From the human T2T-CHM13v2.0 reference genome, Homo sapiens, in the NCBI RefSeq assembly GCF_009914755.1, contig NC_060939.1: a stretch of 64,000 bases of DNA, one strand, 5' to 3'. Position 1 is the stretch's first letter. Each line of letters begins with the position of its first letter. The notes under the pieces are model-generated. The model was not told the origin of the DNA and searched no databases. It saw only the letters and a list, made by a program, of their open reading frames with translations. The translations under genes were made by a program, and so were the position numbers. Positions 1,266 to 9,308 of the stretch are shown here, one piece after another.

Positions 1266-2069
1266 AGCCTGCGTCTTTAGTTCTCCAGCCTCCTACACAC
1301 CTCTTGGACTTTACCATTAGAATATGGTCTCCCCTGCTCTAACTCCTCCTCTAGCTTTGCTAGTTCTGGCTGCTTCCAGTAACACCCATCCCTGCTTGTC
1401 ATAGCTACAGTCGTAGAGACCCAGCCAGGCAGAGGCCTACCTCACCAGCACCCTCTTGGGCTGGCGGCACTTCCTGCAGGGTCCCAGGACGTACGTGTTA
1501 CTTTTTCTTTTACTCATTCATTGCCTTAATTCATTCAACAAACAGAAGGCAGTGGTCAGTGACACTGGGTGGTTAGAGGTCAGGAAGAAATTCACAGAGG
1601 AGGAACTCTTGAGCAGACTTCTGAATGACATGTCTGTTCATCGGGCCCACATGTGGGTAGATACAGAAGAATGTGAGGAAGGAGAGCAGTGTGGATAAAA
1701 GTAGGGGGTGTCAAATGGAGTGGTAAGTTTGGGGGAACTTCAGCAGATTCCATAGGACTAGAACATAGGTTCAAGAGAGAGCTTGCAAAGTTAGCTATAG
1801 AGACTCTTGAACTCCATGTGAAGGAGTTAAAATTGTATCCAAGAAGGAAGTGACTTGGTCAGGTTTTATTTTAGTTCATTTACTCTAAGAGCTATATAGA
1901 TATATTGGGGAAATATGAGAGTATGGCTGGGAGTCTAGTGAAGGGGATATGACAATATCTTGGTGAGAGAGCATGAGAGTAGAAGCAATGGGGATGAATT
2001 CTAATGATGTTTCACATGTGTCCTCTAAATTCCCGATGCCTGATGAGAGTTGGGAGCTATAGGACAGAG

Positions 2070-2296
2070 ACGGTGGTGGGTTTGTGAATATTGAACAGCT
2101 GGCTTCGGTAGTAGGGTGGTGAGTGGGGAGAGGTAGCTATCATTTGTTGTGGTCGCCTATTTCCATAGTGTAAATACTCCCATTGTAGCTGTTTTCCAGC
2201 TACCAATGTGATGTCATTGAATGCAGAGTTGGGAATAGTTGCTAGCAGTCTCATTGACTTGTGATTCAGGGAGAGGCAGGGCCAGCACACCACTGG
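2070..2296 (-). mobile_element. hAT MITE, MER63A-like
   Basis: Terminus ccagcacaccactgg; internal taaatactccca...agctaccaatgtgatgtcattgaatgcagagttggga matches recalled MER63A. Confidence 0.6.
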
Positions 2297-2314
2297 ACAG
2301 GAGGAAATCTAGAT

Positions 2315-2818
2315 CAGTGGTCTACAGCCATTTTGGCACCAGGGACCAGTTTCATGGAAGACAGTTTTTCCACGGACCAGTCGTAGGGGATGGTTTTGGG
2401 ATGATTCTAGCACATTAAATGTATTGTGTACTTTCTTTATATTATTATTACATTGTAATGTGTAATGGAATAGTTATATAACTCACCATGATGTAGAATC
2501 AGTGAGAGTCCTGAGCTTGTTTTCCTGCAACTAGATGGTCCCATCCGGGGTTGATGAGAGACAGAGACACATCATTAGGCATTAGATTCTCATAAGGAGC
2601 CCGCAACCTAGATCCCTCACGTGCACAGTTCACAGTAGGGTTTGTGTTCCTATGAGAATCTAATGCCACCACTCATCTGACAGGAGGCGGAGTTCAGGCA
2701 GTAATGGCAGTGATGGGGAACGGCTGTAAATACAGATGAAGCTTCGCTCACTGGCCTTACTCACCTCCTGCTGTGAGGCCTGATTCCTAACAGGGGGTTC
2801 GGTGGTTGGGGACCCATG
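2315..2818 (-). mobile_element. MER1A hAT-Charlie element
   Basis: Termini cagtggtc...ggttggggacccatg; perfect 8-bp TSD atctagat at 2307-2314 and 2819-2826. Confidence 0.85.
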
Positions 2819-2945
2819 ATCTAGATGATTCCCTGGTTTCTGGCTTGAGTAAATTGGCAGAAGTTGACGCCATTAACTTGGGGAATATAAGAAGAGGAGA
2901 ATAATTGGGATGGGATAGGGTAGGGGGCATATAACATGTTGAGAT

Positions 2946-3298
2946 CAGGGGTCCCCAACCCCCAAGCCATGGACGGATACTGGTCCATAGCCTGTTGGGA
3001 ACTGAGCTGCACAATAGGAGGTGAGCGGGAGGCAAGCAGGCATTACCACCTGAGCTCTGCCTTCTGTCAGATCAGCAGCGGCATTAGCTTCTCATGGGAA
3101 CACAAACCCTATTGTGAACTGCGCATGCGAGGGATCTAGATTGCAGCTCCTTATGAAAATCTAATGCCTGATGATCTGAGGTGGAACAGTTTCATCCCAA
3201 AACCATCTAGCCCCCAATCCCCACCCCGACAACTGGTTTGTGGAAAAACTGTTTTCTATGAAACCAGTACCTGGTGCCAGAAAGGTTGGGGACTGCTG
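2946..3298 (+). mobile_element. MER1B hAT-Charlie element
   Basis: TIRs caggggtccccaacc / ggttggggactgctg; TSD gttgagat / gtttagat (7 of 8). Confidence 0.85.
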
Positions 3299-3779
3299 GT
3301 TTAGATTATGATCATTTAAACTTGAGGGACCTGGAAGAGATTTCCAGTAAGAAGTGGATAATTAGGTCTGAAGTTCCAGAAAGAGATCTAGGCTAGACAG
3401 ATAAACTTGAAGGCATTAACCTAGAGTTGTTAGTTAAAACTACAAAATCATCCAAGGAAAAGCATAGAGCAAGAGAGATAGTGGCTGTGCATTGGCACCT
3501 GAGGGGTAGAAACAGCCAGCTGGGTACTGGCAATGGTGGTCAGAAAGGACCAGAAAAAAAAAGGTAAAAAAAAAATCTTGGGGAGGAGAGACTTCTTCAT
3601 GAAGTGAGTGATTAAAGTTACCACATGCCCTAAGACGGTCAAGTAAGAATACTGAAGAGAAGGCACTGAATTTGTCACTAGGGGGCCCTTGGTTGTCTCT
3701 TCCAAGTAACATTTAATGTGGTGTTGGGAGCAGAAGCCAGACTGAAATTGGTGGAAGAGTAACACAGAAGCAACCTGAA

Positions 3780-5170
3780 TTTACTGTAGCCGGGCCTCCA
3801 TGGGCCTCAGGGGCCTCCACTGCTCATTTCAGAATCCACCCACAGCATCCCTGGTGGCCTCCTCTCAGCCCACTGTGTTCAGAGAAGCCTGAAGAGAATC
3901 CAGAGTATCTGCCCAGGTTCTTGGTACAGCTTCAAATGAGCTTCTCAGATCTTTACTCCTATTGGGAGGAGTGGAAACCAGCACCAGCCCAGCAGCCATA
4001 TTCAGGGCTGGTTCCTGAGAGGCCAGGGTTCCAGCAGGGTAATAGGAAGGTATTGATGCTGTGTCATGGCCAGAGCAAATGCTGCCAAGACCATGCAGAA
4101 ATATCCAGCCAGATGGCTTGGGGTAGAAACCTGGCCTGGCACCAGGACTTGAAGCCATGCCAGGGATATGACTGGAGTAAAGGCAGGACCCAGCAAGCAA
4201 GGAGCTGAGGTCATTGCCATAGATGGCCTTGGGCACCCAGAACTGGCCTTGACTGGGTGTGGCAGACTGCACAAAGACCCAGAGAGAGGAGTTACAGAAG
4301 AAAGCTCATTTCATTTTCTAGAATGTGGCATTTCTCACATTTAGCACAGTGGGAGAGGTGGAGGGATGGGTTAATGCTCTTGCACAGCCCAGCAGCCCCT
4401 TCAGGAGGGTGCTGCAGTCGGTACCTGGCCACTGTCTGCAGAGTGCATGATGCCCCTGCCTAATCAGGCTTGGCCAGTGTTGCTGTTTTGGGGCATCTCC
4501 AGATGAGAGAGGAAGGTCACCCCAAACCAGACCGGTTTCTTGCCCAAGAACTATGTTTGATGATGCCACGTTCCAGGCATTGCTCTCAAGGAACTCACAG
4601 GAGCCCCAAGAAAGGAAGTGGCTCAAACTGTGGAACCTGGCAGCCTGGCAGAGCCCATGAATTCCGATCTCTGGCTGGAATCCCCGTTTACTCCCCAGGC
4701 ACACCTGCCAGTCAAAATGCCCCATACCCCAGTGTGAGCAATGGCCAAAGCAGAGTTGGGAAAGGGACCATCTGGGGCCACAAGGCCTGCCTTCCAGTAA
4801 ATGGGCATGCAGCCACAGGGAGCAGCTGGGCTTCTTCTGTGTTCACCCCACCATTTGGGCAGGCTCTTCACCAAGGCTATGCCCTGCCCACCACCTGAGG
4901 CTTCATGGCCTCCCTTAGAAGGAGTCAGAATCCCATCAACTTTAAGCCCCAAGCTCAGCTGAGGGACATGTGGTACCAGTGGAAATGAGCATCACTGGAA
5001 CCCACTTTCCTGCTGGTCCCAGGGCACCAGGATGCTTTGTGGGTTTCATGTTAGAATCAGGTCATCCCCAGCTTGAGCTGTTTAGCCAGACGTTTCCCCA
5101 TGTGTGCTTCCGCACCATCCCAGTGAGAGCAAGAACATTCAAGCTTCCACCCGATCTGTAGCAGCCACTG
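3780..5170 (+). pseudogene. Decayed Ty3/gypsy gag(-pro) sequence related to the PEG10/RTL (Mart/Sirh) family
   Basis: Collinear blocks across frameshifts: SEKPEENPEYLPRFLVQLQ (3879-3935); NVAFLTFSTVGEVEGWVNALAQPSSP (4322-4399); SRYLATVCRVHDAP; EGHPKPDRFLAQEL/FDDATFQA (~4510-4579); LKELTGAPRKEVAQTVEPGSLAEPMNSDLWLE (4585-4680); knuckle-like KWACSHREQLGFFCVHP/HLGR (4799-4863). Compared by eye with recalled PEG10, RTL3, RTL5 and RTL6 sequences. Confidence 0.75.
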
Positions 5171-5872
5171 CTACCTTGAAACAATCGATCTCCACATATT
5201 CCTTAGTTGTATTAATTCAAAAGTTTGACTGAACACAGTTTATGCTCTGCTTGCAAAGAAGTGAGTTACAAAACCATCCATGTGCACATCCATCTTTTAT
5301 ATTGTCCACCACTGAAAGGCCCATAGCCAGACAGTGTCCACCTGGATCTTTTTAAATAAAAATGATACTTACACGGGTAGGCATACCTTGCCTTGTTACA
5401 ATAGGCTACTTCTAAGTATTCATAACATGCAATCCAATTAGTAAAAATAGAAGCAGGTGAGTAATAAAAAAAGGAGAACAAACAACGTTAATATGTGATT
5501 GTGTCTTGAATTTTATATTCCTTTTACATGTAGGCACTAATTTGGCTCCAAACTTGCTTTAACAGCCATCTTGAAAAAGGCAACCTTGCCAATTGCAGTT
5601 TAGGAATTCATTAGATAGGAAATGAGCTAATTACTCAGAGTAAAGTATAATGATTTCTGATGCTAAAACCAGAAAGAAATCCTCCCATGATCCTCTTGCA
5701 GAAGACACTGGATATTGTGAAGACTAGAATGTGCTCATAGACAACACAGATGCTGCTTCCTATTTTCCCTTCCCTCTTGACCAGCAGCTTCCTGTCAAAT
5801 TGTCTTTCAGTGAAAGAAACTGGGTCAGGAATGCCTTTCTCTAGTGCTTTGGCTTAATTCATGGTACATGCT

Positions 5873-6052
5873 GGGGTAATGGTCCTCGAACTTTGCTGCA
5901 CATTTCAGTCAACTGGGGAACTTTAAAAAATTCTGATGTCCTGGCTGCACCCCGTAAGTCAGAATTTCTGGGGATGGGACCCAGGATACTGAGATTAGTG
6001 AATACTAACAATAACAGGTGATTCTAACAAATAGCAAAATTTGAGAGCCATT
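5873..6052. mobile_element. MER5A-like hAT MITE
   Basis: tcagaatttctggggatgggacccagg...caggtgattctaac...tttgagagcca. Confidence 0.6.
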
Positions 6053-7384
6053 TTTTTTAGAGCATCTGTGGTCAGAGTTGATATTGAACCTGCACATACC
6101 AGTATGGACATGGTCAGAAATATGGTCAGAAAAAAAAGAATTAGTAAACAGCCTCTGCTGGAACCCCATGAGCATTTCTCACCTGCTCAGGCCACTCTGC
6201 CAGTAACCGCCTGACTTGTCCATAATCGAACAACTATGGGGTTAACACTTCGTACCATAGTAGGCCTCCAAGACCCTATTCCAGTGCTATGGCCAGACAC
6301 ATTCTGTTGATTGAGCCCTTGCTGTGAAGATTTAGTATTTTGAACACCATCTATATTATCTATAGTAATGGATTGACTATAAATTTACCAGGGAGTCTTC
6401 CATACATGTTTTTCAGCTTTTGATTGTTGAACAGTAGAAAGTTCAAAATTGTATTCTAGCCAAATTAGGGGAAATTTACATGGCTTAACTGGCTGGGCCA
6501 TTTGACATACTTTGTAGATACTCTGTCTCCCAAAAAGTAAAAGTATGTATGTGGCAGTTCATCCAGCTCCACTTAGAGATGATGTGACAGAGCATTTTCA
6601 AGCAGAACCCTGGACCCATCCTGAGATCAATAGGCCTGACCTACCAATTGCATCTGTATGGAATTTGTATACAAACAAATTATGTATGTCCTTCACTGAG
6701 AACATTCTCTACCACAGAAATTATGGGTTCACCTCCATTGTTTCCCTGAACCTGTTGACACCACGAAACCCCAGTAGGCAGCCAGACTTCAAAGGGCTCA
6801 TGAGGCGTGCAAGAGGACTTCAGTTATTCTCAGTTCTCAGGGTACCAGTAAACACACTGTAGCCAGCGCCAAGGGCCTGAGAAGGCTATGAAAGAGAAGT
6901 CTCAATCTGCTTCTTCTCCCAGCGTGTGCTACAACAAGGAGGACCTGTAACTGGGGTCCCCCAAGGTAAATTAGGTCCCCATTGCATGACCTTCTAAATC
7001 CAGAGGTATTCTTGATGTTAGTCCAGTATCTCTTCTGCCACTCACTAGTGCTTCCAAGCCATCCATCCTACACTCCACAATCTGCTCAGGAACCTAAATA
7101 CATCATCAAAGAGGATCCAGACTTCCACCCATATCACTGTCCTTCTCCCATGCCTACCTCAGAATCACCCCAGAACACATTGAGCCTTCTCTCAGGTGAA
7201 ACAAGGGAGAGAAATACTTCTCTTGGGGACAGGATCTGAGAAGTATTGTCTTTGGGCCTAGCCCATTAAGAGGAGCCGATCGATGCCCAGGAACAAGTCA
7301 AAGCCAACCCCATCTCTGTTCCCTCTTAGTCTTCCCTGCTGTGCATTGGCTGCACCTGCCCTTGTCACCAGATCAGTGGTGGCA

Positions 7385-7610
7385 GCAGTTATATATGAGA
7401 GCTCATTATGTGCCCGCTACTGTGCTGTGCACTTGATATAAACAATCTGACTTAATTTTTACTTCCCTCCCATTGAAAGCACTAACATTATTCACATTTC
7501 ACAGGTGAGGAAACTGAGGCTCAGAGAGATGAAAGAATTTGTCCAAGTGGCAGAGCTAAGATTCAAACTCAGGTTTATCTGACTTCAAACTGCCTATGCC
7601 ACCTGTTCTT
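7385..7610 (-). mobile_element. MIR SINE
   Basis: Reverse MIR core acaggtgaggaaactgaggctcagagag. Confidence 0.75.
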
Positions 7611-8236
7611 TTTTGATCACGGCTACCCATTGCTTCTTCAGACCCCCATGCCAATTTAATCGACATATTTGGGTTATATTCTGCAGCTGGCCAACCTCAG
7701 CCTCCTTTCAGACCCTTCAAATACATTTGCTCACATTCCCACTCTCACTTCCTCCCTCAGATTTGGGGTACCCATGGCTCTAAGCCAGAGGGCCTCTCTG
7801 CCAGATAGTAGAGACCTGACATATCAGACCCTTATTGATGGAAACATGTACCCAGAGGCTGGGTATTTATGGAGCCATTATATGAGCATGGCCTAGAACA
7901 AATATTCCTCAAATCTAGAAATAACTATTCCCTACATTTCACCAAATCATTTAACCTCATGCCTCCCCAAACCAGGGTTTTATCAAATCACTTACACATT
8001 TTCATGCACCTCATTCACACTTGCATTCTTTGCCACTAAAGTACTAGATAGTTGTGAAATTTACCCCAATCTGTGGATGTATAATGTTATTCATGGTTTT
8101 ATTCTTGAATGTTTTAAAATAGTAAAAAAGATACGTTTGTTAGCCTGTATCAGCCTTGAAAGATTACTGTCAAAAAGTCTGTATTTTTGAGATGTTTATT
8201 CGTATTTTCTTTTCTTTCTTTTTTTTTTTCTTGGAG

Positions 8237-9308
8237 AAATCAAATCAGAGATGAAGACAAAACTTGGTGAGCAGGGTCCGCAGATCCTCAGTGTCCAGAG
8301 AGTCTACATTCAGACAAGGGAAGAGAAGCGTATTAACCTGACCATTGGTAGCAGAGCCTATTTGCTGCCCAACACATCCGTGATTATTAAGTGCCCAGTG
8401 CGACGATTCCAGAAATCTCTGATCCAGTGGGAGAAGGATGGCCGTTGCCTGCAGAACTCCAAACGGCTTGGCATCACCAAGTCAGGCTCACTAAAAATCC
8501 ACGGTCTTGCTGCCCCCGACATCGGCGTGTACCGGTGCATTGCAGGCTCTGCACAGGAAACAGTTGTGCTCAAGCTCATTGGTACTGACAACCGGCTCAT
8601 CGCACGCCCAGCCCTCAGGGAGCCTATGAGGGAATATCCTGGGATGGACCACAGCGAAGCCAATAGTTTGGGAGTCACATGGCACAAAATGAGGCAAATG
8701 TGGAATAACAAAAATGACCTTTATCTGGATGATGACCACATTAGTAACCAGCCTTTCTTGAGAGCTCTGTTAGGCCACTGCAGCAATTCTGCAGGAAGCA
8801 CCAACTCCTGGGAGTTGAAGAATAAGCAGTTTGAAGCAGCAGTTAAACAAGGAGCATATAGCATGGATACAGCCCAGTTTGATGAGCTGATAAGAAACAT
8901 GAGTCAGCTCATGGAAACCGGAGAGGTCAGCGATGATCTTGCGTCCCAGCTGATATATCAGCTGGTGGCCGAATTAGCCAAGGCACAGCCAACACACATG
9001 CAGTGGCGGGGCATCCAGGAAGAGACACCTCCTGCTGCTCAGCTCAGAGGGGAAACAGGGAGTGTGTCCCAAAGCTCGCATGCAAAAAACTCAGGCAAGC
9101 TGACATTCAAGCCGAAAGGACCTGTTCTCATGAGGCAAAGCCAACCTCCCTCAATTTCATTTAATAAAACAATAAATTCCAGGATTGGAAATACAGTATA
9201 CATTACAAAAAGGACAGAGGTCATCAATATACTGTGTGACCTTATTACCCCCAGTGAGGCCACATATACATGGACCAAGGATGGAACCTTGTTACAGCCC
9301 TCAGTAAA
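8237..9308 (+). CDS. ADAMTSL3: ADAMTSL3 exon 21 (1072 nt, phase 1 to 2): Ig-like domain 1, spacer, start of Ig-like domain 2
   Basis: Long pyrimidine tract then ggag| acceptor; (K)IKSEMKTKLGEQGPQ...IKCPVRRF...W...GVYRCIAG...WTKDGTLLQPSV(K); donor AA|gtaagt. Confidence 0.97.

What the first reader, a model, noticed from the sequence alone, without database searches (positions are those of the whole stretch)
3780..5170. Hidden fossil of a PEG10/RTL-type retrotransposon capsid (gag) gene inside an ADAMTSL3 intron
Seen: a ~1.4-kb GC-richer island. Read across about five frameshifts and two stops, it gives Gag blocks in the correct order. (1) SEKPEENPEYLPRFLVQLQ (3879-3935) aligns without gaps to PEG10 PEKFDGNPDMLAPFMAQCQ. 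(2) *NVAFLTFSTVGEVEGWVNALAQPSSP (4319-4399) aligns to RTL6 [27 protein letters not shown]. (3) SRYLATVCRVHDAP resembles QGFLAELRRTYKSP. (4) EGHPKPDRFLAQEL/FDDATFQA resembles RTL3 EGHVATHFHLIAQELNWDESTL. (5) LKELTGAPRKEVAQTVEPGSLAEPMNSDLWLE (4585-4680) aligns to PEG10 HEGLSDHIQEELSHLEVAKSLSALIGQCIHIE. Reference strings are recalled from memory. Established: Ty3/gypsy elements survive in eutherians mainly as domesticated genes (PEG10, RTL1, RTL3-10, LDOC1; also PNMA, ARC), and I know of no RTL gene at 15q25. Inference: this is a lost domesticated capsid gene, a retrocopy of an ancestral RTL, or a rare relic of the founder element. It may be intact in other mammals.
Basis: partly seen in the sequence, partly recalled or inferred. 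Interest (0 to 1): 0.9.

Follow-up and report, generated by a model that had tools for sequence, protein, structure and literature searches.

The report
Decayed RTL5/RTL6-like capsid gene fossil
An intron of the human ADAMTSL3 gene holds the broken, long-dead remains of a retrotransposon capsid (Gag) gene closest to RTL5 and RTL6; it is a real but apparently functionless fossil that ordinary searches miss.

Summary

A frameshift-aware alignment to a profile of eight human RTL-family capsid parts gives one alignment at 4325-4653 (+). It covers profile 52-163 across three frameshifts and one stop, and scores 56.8. No control reached it: 0 of 300 and 0 of 1914 shuffles, and 0 of 240 tiles from elsewhere in the genome. 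A separate upstream block at 3897-3935 scores 43.9 and is reached by 1 of 5223 shuffles.

PNMA and ARC queries score at null level. The closest relatives are RTL5 (41/122 identical) and RTL6 (25/79), and a tree groups the relic with them.

Evidence against: Pfam sees nothing in single-frame pieces, and a wider family profile is much weaker.

No zinc knuckle, pol, LTRs or DNA-level likeness to RTL loci were found.

Best reading: a neutrally decaying dead copy that is old and not a recent retrocopy. Whether RepeatMasker/Dfam already labels it, and its state in other mammals, could not be checked.

The parts
3814..3950 (+). N-terminal piece: a proline-rich lead-in and the first capsid helix motif. 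The significant core is 3897-3935 (profile positions 23-35).
   Evidence: Profile block score 43.9. It is reached by 1 of 5223 shuffles of the 600 nt upstream of the main alignment and by 0 of 404 real 600-nt stretches of the window. Against the RTL5-like ORF residues 128-176, 20 of 44 aligned residues are identical. It keeps near-invariant L, F and Q. The P..F.G motif just before it is degenerate.
3951..4324 (+). 374 nt that stand where the family has only 11-16 residues. Origin unexplained.
   Evidence: RTL5 has 11 residues between the two aligned parts. Composition matches the rest of the relic: GC 0.52 and no CpG. The profile finds nothing above null here (25.5 on + and 26.1 on -). Sensitive blastn gives no match to the rest of the window. 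No convincing internal duplication was found.
4325..4683 (+). Main capsid body, from the N-terminal-domain helices to the end of the C-terminal domain. Broken by a +1 shift near 4406, a TAA at 4461-4463, and -1 shifts near 4553 and 4585.
   Evidence: Single frameshift-aware local alignment of 4325-4653 to profile 52-163, score 56.8. Nulls: 300 shuffles 29.3+-3.2, max 40.0. 1914 shuffles max 45.9. 240 tiles from elsewhere in the genome 29.8+-3.5, max 44.7. Best independent tile in the window 41.9. RTL5 alone traces the same path, 34 of 108 identical. Five library representatives extend it to 4680-4717. It keeps near-invariant V, G, W, P and A, and departs conservatively at three columns.
4684..5170 (+). 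GC-rich tail of the island with no demonstrable homology. A zinc-knuckle remnant at 4787-4888 is possible but not supported.
   Evidence: GC 0.55. The RTL3-like C-terminus scores 40 at 4787-4873, reached by 24 of 300 shuffles. A C-terminal profile from 125 representatives picks the same place but scores 24.2, below the null mean of 31.0; 297 of 300 shuffles reach it. PEG10 ORF2 and RTL1 380-780 give only short proline-rich or scattered hits of 42 over 4650-8200 (no shuffles were run for these two).

Best explanation
Window 3814-4683 (+ strand, sense to ADAMTSL3) is the broken remnant of a sushi-class Metaviridae (Ty3/gypsy) Gag capsid coding sequence. It belongs to the same lineage as the human genes RTL5 and RTL6. 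It now does nothing: it has no open frame, is split by a 374-nt stretch of unknown origin, and has lost its CpGs. It is not part of any annotated ADAMTSL3 exon.

I infer that it is a dead copy that entered the locus around or before the eutherian radiation and has drifted neutrally for most of the time since. It could be a truncated insertion of the founder element or an early gag-only copy of the RTL5/RTL6 ancestor. These cannot be told apart here.

Shown: homology, collinearity, the breaks, and the affinity to RTL5/RTL6. Inferred: the age, the neutrality and the mode of origin.
For: The frameshift-aware profile alignment scores 56.8, with a chained score of 89.2. Shuffles give 29.3+-3.2 and 38.5+-5.9, and 0 of 300 reach either score. 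A further 0 of 1914 shuffles reach the local score. Among 240 control tiles from 20 other chromosomal stretches, the maxima are 44.7 and 60.9.

In an unguided scan of the whole window on both strands (156 tiles), only tiles holding the region top both lists. The reverse strand and a reversed profile score at null level.

The upstream block is independent and collinear: 1 of 5223 shuffles reaches it.

Single human ORFs give these z scores: RTL6 6.6, RTL5 4.4, LDOC1 3.4, RTL1 3.1, RTL10 3.0. PNMA2, PNMA1, MOAP1 and ARC give z<=0.7.

For capsid domains of 144 library representatives, the observed mean is 36.2 against ten shuffle means of 32.4-34.3. 31 of 144 exceed the pooled 95th percentile.

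The relic keeps 8 of the 11 near-invariant family columns it covers.

In plain hmmsearch, the two best of 3437 stop-to-stop pieces of the window are the relic's two pieces, in collinear order (E 0.14 and 0.85).

The tree gives (RTL6,(relic,(RTL5,P0002))) with support 96/85 and a relic end branch of 1.5, against 0.36 for RTL6. Identity is 33.6% to RTL5 and 31.6% to RTL6, inside the 24-62% range seen among the human paralogues.

There is no DNA-level match to 10 RTL loci (best E 0.18) and none to the rest of the genome. CpG o/e is 0-0.13.
Against: Curated Pfam models find no Gag family in any of 22 single-frame pieces at E<=10.

Genome searches do not return this place, though the tool scores only about 15 first-look candidates. 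This holds for DUF4939, Retrotrans_gag and the RTL5 capsid.

A wider profile of 169 sequences is far weaker. Its local score is 38.2, reached by 6 of 300 shuffles. Its chained score is 60.5, reached by 0 of 300 (null max 57.2). In plain hmmsearch with that profile, the relic piece ranks only fifth (E=5).

P-values beyond the shuffle counts are Gumbel extrapolations, about 1e-5 to 3e-5 for the main alignment.

The relic was placed on the tree through an alignment fitted to that profile, and its branch is long, so its exact position is unsure. The relic+RTL5 node has support of only 92/33.

The 374-nt interruption is unexplained. Age and neutrality rest on rough reasoning, not on orthologues.
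Confidence: 0.8

Rival explanations
1. It is a once-functional domesticated RTL-family gene, a twelfth eutherian member, that was later lost in the lineage to humans and may survive elsewhere.
For: It is gag-only, like RTL5/RTL6. It lies inside the clade of two domesticated genes. The capsid body has only three frameshifts and one stop over about 330 nt. It keeps 8 of the 11 near-invariant columns it covers.
Against: The relic's end branch is 1.5, against 0.36 for RTL6 and about 0.5 for RTL5. CpG is fully depleted. No DNA-level likeness to any RTL locus remains. The frame is interrupted by 374 nt. A survey of 18 mammals by six-frame HMM and iterative BLAST reports 19 placental groups, and its main text mentions neither ADAMTSL3 nor chromosome 15 (PMC11011659). 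Its supplement was seen only in part.
Confidence: 0.07
2. It is a chance resemblance: unique GC-richer intronic DNA that happens to translate into Gag-like strings, picked by a reader who was looking for them.
For: Pfam finds nothing. Plain hmmsearch E-values are 0.14 and 0.85. The wider profile gives only P of about 0.005-0.02. At about 1e-5 per 1.6-kb tile, tens of chance hits to the main alignment alone are expected genome-wide (my arithmetic).
Against: The main alignment and the upstream block lie on non-overlapping DNA, so under chance they multiply: about 1e-5 to 3e-5 times about 2e-4. That is about 0.01-0.02 expected in the whole genome. The spacing of blocks 2-5 fits the family over 330 nt. 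The likeness is specific to the RTL lineage and absent for PNMA and ARC. Independent non-human-like representatives trace the same path through the same frame changes. The match coincides with a compositional island.
Confidence: 0.1
3. It is a copy of an already catalogued ancient LTR/Gypsy repeat family and is routinely labelled by RepeatMasker. The biology would be the same, but nothing would be new.
For: Repbase/Dfam list mammalian Gypsy internal families: MamGyp-int and X1-X4_LR (PMC5753468, passages), and MamGypsy2-I, seen only as a name in a table (PMC11353194). Fragmented Metaviridae fossils in mammals are described (PMC3670739).
Against: The PNMA2 ORF is described as the Gag part of MamGyp-int (bioRxiv 10.1101/2023.02.09.527862, passage). 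PNMA-type queries score at null level here, so it is not that family. No second copy was found by DNA or protein searches of the genome or of the window, though these searches are insensitive to old repeats.
Confidence: 0.3

Closest known systems
RTL5 (SIRH8/RGAG4) and RTL6 (SIRH3/LDOC1L), human domesticated sushi-class Gag genes
   Same: Same capsid fold-coding layout in the same order. Identity is 41/122 to RTL5 and 25/79 to RTL6. The proline-rich lead-in resembles that of RTL5. The tree groups the three together (96/85).
   Different: The relic has no open frame and is interrupted by 374 nt. It shows no detectable N-terminal coiled-coil or C-terminal tail. It lies on chromosome 15 inside another gene's intron. 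There is no evidence of selection or expression.
The LDOC1-related pseudogene of the human genome (Henriques et al. 2024, PMC11011659), probably the broken DUF4939 locus at G000:C18:5400521-5400762
   Same: A dead RTL-family Gag copy on an autosome.
   Different: The chr18 copy is far better preserved. It gives profile score 179.7 with one frameshift and two stops, and Pfam E=2.3e-8. It is therefore found by ordinary HMM scans, while the chr15 relic is not.
MamGyp-int / PNMA-type Gag (Repbase family; PNMA2 ORF)
   Same: Ancient mammalian Ty3/gypsy Gag remains.
   Different: A different Gag lineage. PNMA2, PNMA1 and MOAP1 ORFs score z<=0.7 against the relic.
Opossum SIRH12 pseudogene (PMC3158469)
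   Same: A sushi-class gag-only copy degraded by nonsense mutations.
   Different: It is marsupial-specific and lies between ENC1 and RGNEF (human chr5 synteny), not in ADAMTSL3.

Membership tests
RTL/SIRH (sushi-class Metaviridae Gag capsid; Pfam DUF4939 / Retrotrans_gag) | Significant sequence likeness to the capsid domain | tested here: met
   Met only with frameshift-aware alignment: 56.8 against a null of 29-30+-3.5, and 0 of 2214 shuffles and 0 of 240 genomic tiles reach it. Curated Pfam models on single-frame pieces gave 0 Gag families.
RTL/SIRH (sushi-class Metaviridae Gag capsid; Pfam DUF4939 / Retrotrans_gag) | N-terminal and C-terminal capsid parts in family order and spacing | tested here: met
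   Profile positions 23-35 then 52-163 on one strand. Spacing inside 4325-4653 fits the family. The exception is 374 extra nt between positions 35 and 52.
RTL/SIRH (sushi-class Metaviridae Gag capsid; Pfam DUF4939 / Retrotrans_gag) | Near-invariant residues of the family | tested here: inconclusive
   The relic keeps 8 of the 11 such columns it covers, and the three departures are conservative. The four columns of the P..P..F.G motif are not recognisably kept.
RTL/SIRH (sushi-class Metaviridae Gag capsid; Pfam DUF4939 / Retrotrans_gag) | Intact ORF under purifying selection (what makes it a domesticated gene rather than a fossil) | tested here: not met
   Three frameshifts and one stop in the capsid body, plus the 374-nt break. 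Selection across species is not testable with these tools.
RTL/SIRH (sushi-class Metaviridae Gag capsid; Pfam DUF4939 / Retrotrans_gag) | CCHC zinc knuckle after the capsid (present in PEG10, RTL3 and most retrotransposon Gags; absent in RTL5, RTL6 and LDOC1) | tested here: not met
   24 of 300 shuffles and 297 of 300 shuffles reach the observed scores.
Full-length Ty3/gypsy LTR retrotransposon insertion | Flanking LTRs and downstream protease/RT/integrase | tested here: not met
   No flanking direct repeats of 16 nt or more bracket the relic in 2000-7500. PEG10 ORF2 and RTL1 380-780 give only scores of 42 over 4650-8200, and those hits are not in protease or RT motifs (without shuffles). Great age could have erased both features.
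MamGyp-int / PNMA-type Gag | Likeness to PNMA-family capsid | tested here: not met
   PNMA2, PNMA1 and MOAP1 ORFs give z 0.7, -0.3 and 0.3.
Recent processed pseudogene of a living RTL gene | Nucleotide-level likeness to the parent gene, poly(A) tail, target-site duplication | tested here: not met
   blastn with word size 7 against 10 RTL-family loci gives nothing below E=0.18, and the hits are not collinear. Poly(A) tail and target-site duplication were not examined rigorously.

The most novel reading that the evidence does not exclude
The relic marks a previously uncounted insertion or duplication in the RTL5/RTL6 lineage: a twelfth eutherian RTL locus at 15q25. It was a working gene in early placentals, or is still open in some unsampled mammalian lineage. 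Its orthologues could date when the founder element or the RTL5/RTL6 ancestor was still copying itself.
Probability: 0.06. Interest if true: 0.6.

Novelty: new member of a known kind. Interest (0 to 1): 0.33.

Why it matters
The catalogue of human Metaviridae capsid sequences is regarded as complete at 24 intact genes plus two pseudogenes (PMC11011659, section 5). That catalogue rests on stop-to-stop six-frame HMM scans, which cannot see a copy this fragmented.

A third member of the RTL5/RTL6 clade, dead and on an autosome, bears on how that clade arose. It may have come from repeated insertion of one element or from copying of an already captured gene. The relic also offers a neutral yardstick against which the constraint on RTL5 and RTL6 can be measured.

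More generally, it shows that more such fossils may lie below the reach of standard scans. In itself it is non-functional intronic DNA, and nothing suggests an effect on ADAMTSL3.

Tried and rejected
Pfam scans of 18 + 4 single-frame pieces found no Gag family. The only hits were chance-level Med12 and DUF202.

Genome-wide searches did not return this locus or any second copy. They used DUF4939, Retrotrans_gag, the RTL5 capsid, two relic pieces, and the relic DNA.

The zinc-knuckle remnant at 4787-4888 was rejected as unsupported. Protease/pol remnants downstream were not found. LTR-like flanking repeats were not found.

An internal duplication or a common repeat as the source of the 374-nt interruption is not supported. 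Only a 22-nt match at E=0.57 was found, and there was no match to the rest of the window.

I looked for a closer relative among the best 150 of 11410 library representatives. None beats human RTL6/RTL5. The other 11260 were not examined.

The wider 169-sequence profile did not sharpen the signal but weakened it.

SIRH12 as the orthologue was rejected because it lies at a different locus.

I did not fold the relic. A read-through across frameshifts could not be handed to the folding tool by reference, and single-frame pieces are 31-48 residues long.

Full report
WHAT IS THERE

The window is human T2T chr15:81,840,001-81,904,000. The flagged stretch lies in an ADAMTSL3 intron, on the gene's sense strand, about 3 kb upstream of the exon at 8237-9308 (hub annotation).

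GC content is 0.50-0.57 from about 3600 to 5100 and 0.33-0.45 on either side. CpG observed/expected is only 0.00-0.13. This is therefore a compositional island, not a CpG island.

I read the true human RTL-family ORFs out of the genome itself.

STANDARD SEARCHES SEE NOTHING

- Pfam hmmscan of 18 stop-to-stop pieces on both strands, and of four further pieces cut to the blocks (one read through its stop as X), found no Gag family at E<=10.
- Genome-wide searches with DUF4939, Retrotrans_gag and the RTL5 capsid recover the known RTL, PEG10, LDOC1 and ARC loci and a broken locus on chr18. They do not recover this place. These searches score only about 7-15 first-look candidates.
- tblastn of eight RTL ORFs against the whole 64-kb window put this region first of 400 hits. 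The top hit was RTL6-like residues 137-167 against 4325-4417, at 45% identity but only E=0.016.

FRAMESHIFT-AWARE TEST

I wrote a local protein/profile-to-DNA aligner with frameshift moves. I also built a 181-position profile from the capsid parts of eight human RTL-family ORFs.

The main result is one local alignment, 4325-4653 (+) to profile 52-163, with score 56.8.

A second block, 3897-3935 to profile 23-35, scores 43.9. The chained score is 89.2.

Nulls and controls for the local score of 56.8 and the chained score of 89.2:

| Control | Local | Chain | Reach observed |
|---|---|---|---|
| 300 dinucleotide shuffles | 29.3+-3.2, max 40.0 | 38.5+-5.9, max 66.7 | 0 of 300 |
| 1914 further shuffles | max 45.9 | not run | 0 of 1914 |
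| 156 tiles of the window, both strands | next independent tile 41.9 | not compared | only tiles holding the region |
| 240 tiles from 20 other 10-kb genome stretches | 29.8+-3.5, max 44.7 | 39.0+-6.4, max 60.9 | 0 of 240 |
| Reverse strand | 33.7 | 48.2 | no |
| Reversed profile | 27.1 | 37.1 | no |

Reference scores for loci not in the profile: the chr18 broken locus scores 179.7 and the RTL9-like locus 196.9. The distant ARC and PNMA2 loci score 48.0 and 41.4.

The upstream block was tested on its own against profile 1-51. It is reached by 1 of 5223 shuffles of the 600 nt upstream, and by 0 of 404 real 600-nt stretches.

The two parts lie on non-overlapping DNA, so under chance their probabilities multiply. 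That gives about 1e-5 to 3e-5 (Gumbel extrapolation) times about 2e-4. This last figure is my arithmetic, not a tool result.

RESULTS THAT WEAKEN THE CASE

- A wider profile of 169 sequences (the eight human ORFs plus library representatives) gives a local score of only 38.2, which 6 of 300 shuffles reach. Its chained score is 60.5, which 0 of 300 reach (null max 57.2).
- In plain hmmsearch over all 3437 stop-to-stop pieces of the window, the RTL-only profile ranks the relic's two pieces first and second and in collinear order. Their E-values are only 0.14 and 0.85.
- In the same search, the wider profile ranks the relic piece fifth, at E=5.

Partly independent support comes from 144 representative capsid domains. 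Their observed mean score is 36.2, against ten shuffle means of 32.4-34.3. 31 of 144 exceed the pooled 95th percentile and 15 exceed the 99th. Of the 136 representatives under 45% identical to any human ORF used, 26 and 12 do so. Five representatives trace the same path through the same frame changes and carry it to 4680-4717.

WHICH GAG

Frameshift-aware z scores for single ORFs:

| Query ORF | z |
|---|---|
| RTL6 | 6.6 |
| RTL5 | 4.4 |
| LDOC1 | 3.4 |
| RTL1 | 3.1 |
| RTL10 | 3.0 |
| RTL3 | 2.1 |
| PEG10 | 1.4 |
| RTL8 | 1.4 |
| PNMA2, PNMA1, MOAP1, ARC | <=0.7 |

The PNMA2 ORF is described as the Gag part of the repeat family MamGyp-int (bioRxiv 10.1101/2023.02.09.527862, passage). The relic is therefore not of that type.

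Identity on profile columns:

| ORF | Identity to relic |
|---|---|
| RTL5 | 41/122 (33.6%) |
| RTL6 | 25/79 (31.6%) |
| LDOC1 | 31.0% |
| RTL8 | 29.3% |
| RTL3 | 25.2% |
| RTL1 | 24.6% |
| RTL10 | 22.3% |
| PEG10 | 20.5% |

The human paralogues are 24-62% identical among themselves on the same columns. The relic keeps 8 of the 11 near-invariant family columns it covers, including the tryptophan kept by 149 of 149 representatives. It departs conservatively at the other three.

An ML tree (38 rows, 122 columns, LG+G4) gives (RTL6,(relic,(RTL5,P0002))). Support is 96/85 for the clade and 92/33 for relic+RTL5. The relic's end branch is 1.5. That placement rests on an alignment fitted to the profile and on a long branch, so it is a lead, not proof.

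None of the best 150 of 11410 library hits is closer than human RTL6/RTL5.

WHAT IS MISSING

- Zinc knuckle: the best place for both tests is 4787-4888, but 24 of 300 and 297 of 300 shuffles reach the observed scores.
- Protease or pol in 4650-8200: only hits of 42 in proline-rich or scattered stretches (no shuffles run for these).
- Flanking direct repeats: none.
- Nucleotide-level likeness: none to 10 RTL-family loci (best E 0.18, not collinear). There is none to the rest of the genome or window either.
- The 374 nt between the two parts: RTL5 has 11 residues here. The stretch shares the island's composition but matched nothing.

READING

The relic is real (about 0.9) and dead. The evidence for great age is its long branch, vanished CpGs, absent DNA-level likeness, and identity to RTL5/RTL6 no higher than between old paralogues. 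All of this fits neutral decay since about the time the RTL5/RTL6 lineage arose. It does not fit a recent retrocopy or a recently lost gene.

I cannot separate a truncated insertion of the founder element from an early gag-only copy of the RTL5/RTL6 ancestor. Both leave the same picture after this much time.

IN PRINT

Henriques et al. 2024 (PMC11011659; section 5 read, passages elsewhere) scanned the T2T genome in six frames between stops. They report 24 intact metaviral capsid genes plus two pseudogenes, one PNMA6E/F-like and one LDOC1-like. 'ADAMTSL3' and 'chromosome 15' do not occur in the main text. Three peptides of the relic are absent from the part of the supplement that is held, but the file is cut.

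Kokosar and Kordis 2013 (PMC3670739, passages) describe rare, highly fragmented Metaviridae fossils in mammals as a class. A full-text search for ADAMTSL3 with gypsy gave two unrelated papers (listing only). SIRH12 lies elsewhere (PMC3158469, passages).

Whether RepeatMasker/Dfam already labels the stretch could not be checked. MamGypsy2-I, for example, was seen only as a name. This is the main open point for novelty.

VERDICT

This is a new member of a known kind unless a repeat annotation already exists. Interest is modest.

Noticed in passing
G000:C18:5400521-5400762 (L021:2022-2260, + strand): A broken DUF4939/LDOC1-like Gag copy on chromosome 18. Pfam gives E=2.3e-8 and 0.52 for two pieces with TGA/TAG stops. 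My profile scores it 179.7 with one frameshift and two stops. It is probably the LDOC1-related pseudogene mentioned in PMC11011659.
   Followed up: partly
window 2306-2706 and 3041-3307: An inverted repeat just upstream of the relic. 2568-2706 matches 3178-3041 at 85% identity, and 2306-2400 matches 3307-3213 at 77%. It is likely two copies of one interspersed repeat in opposite orientation, with no link to the relic shown.
   Followed up: partly
window 3951-4324: The 374-nt stretch that splits the relic has the relic's composition and not a single CpG. It contains a weak second P-Y-S-G...F-like motif near 3966-4030 (score 25.5, below null). It also has a 22-nt 86% match, 3985-4006 against 4385-4405, at E=0.57. 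Its origin is unexplained.
   Followed up: partly
G000:C23:151297145-151297624, C23:107841639-107841995, C7:117103607-117103819: PNMA-domain matches that carry in-frame stops. These are further broken PNMA-family copies in the human genome.
   Followed up: no
window 3553-3577 and 5463-5475: A-rich runs lie 5' of the island, and an AATAAA-plus-A run lies about 300 nt 3' of it. They were not evaluated as poly(A) remnants.
   Followed up: no
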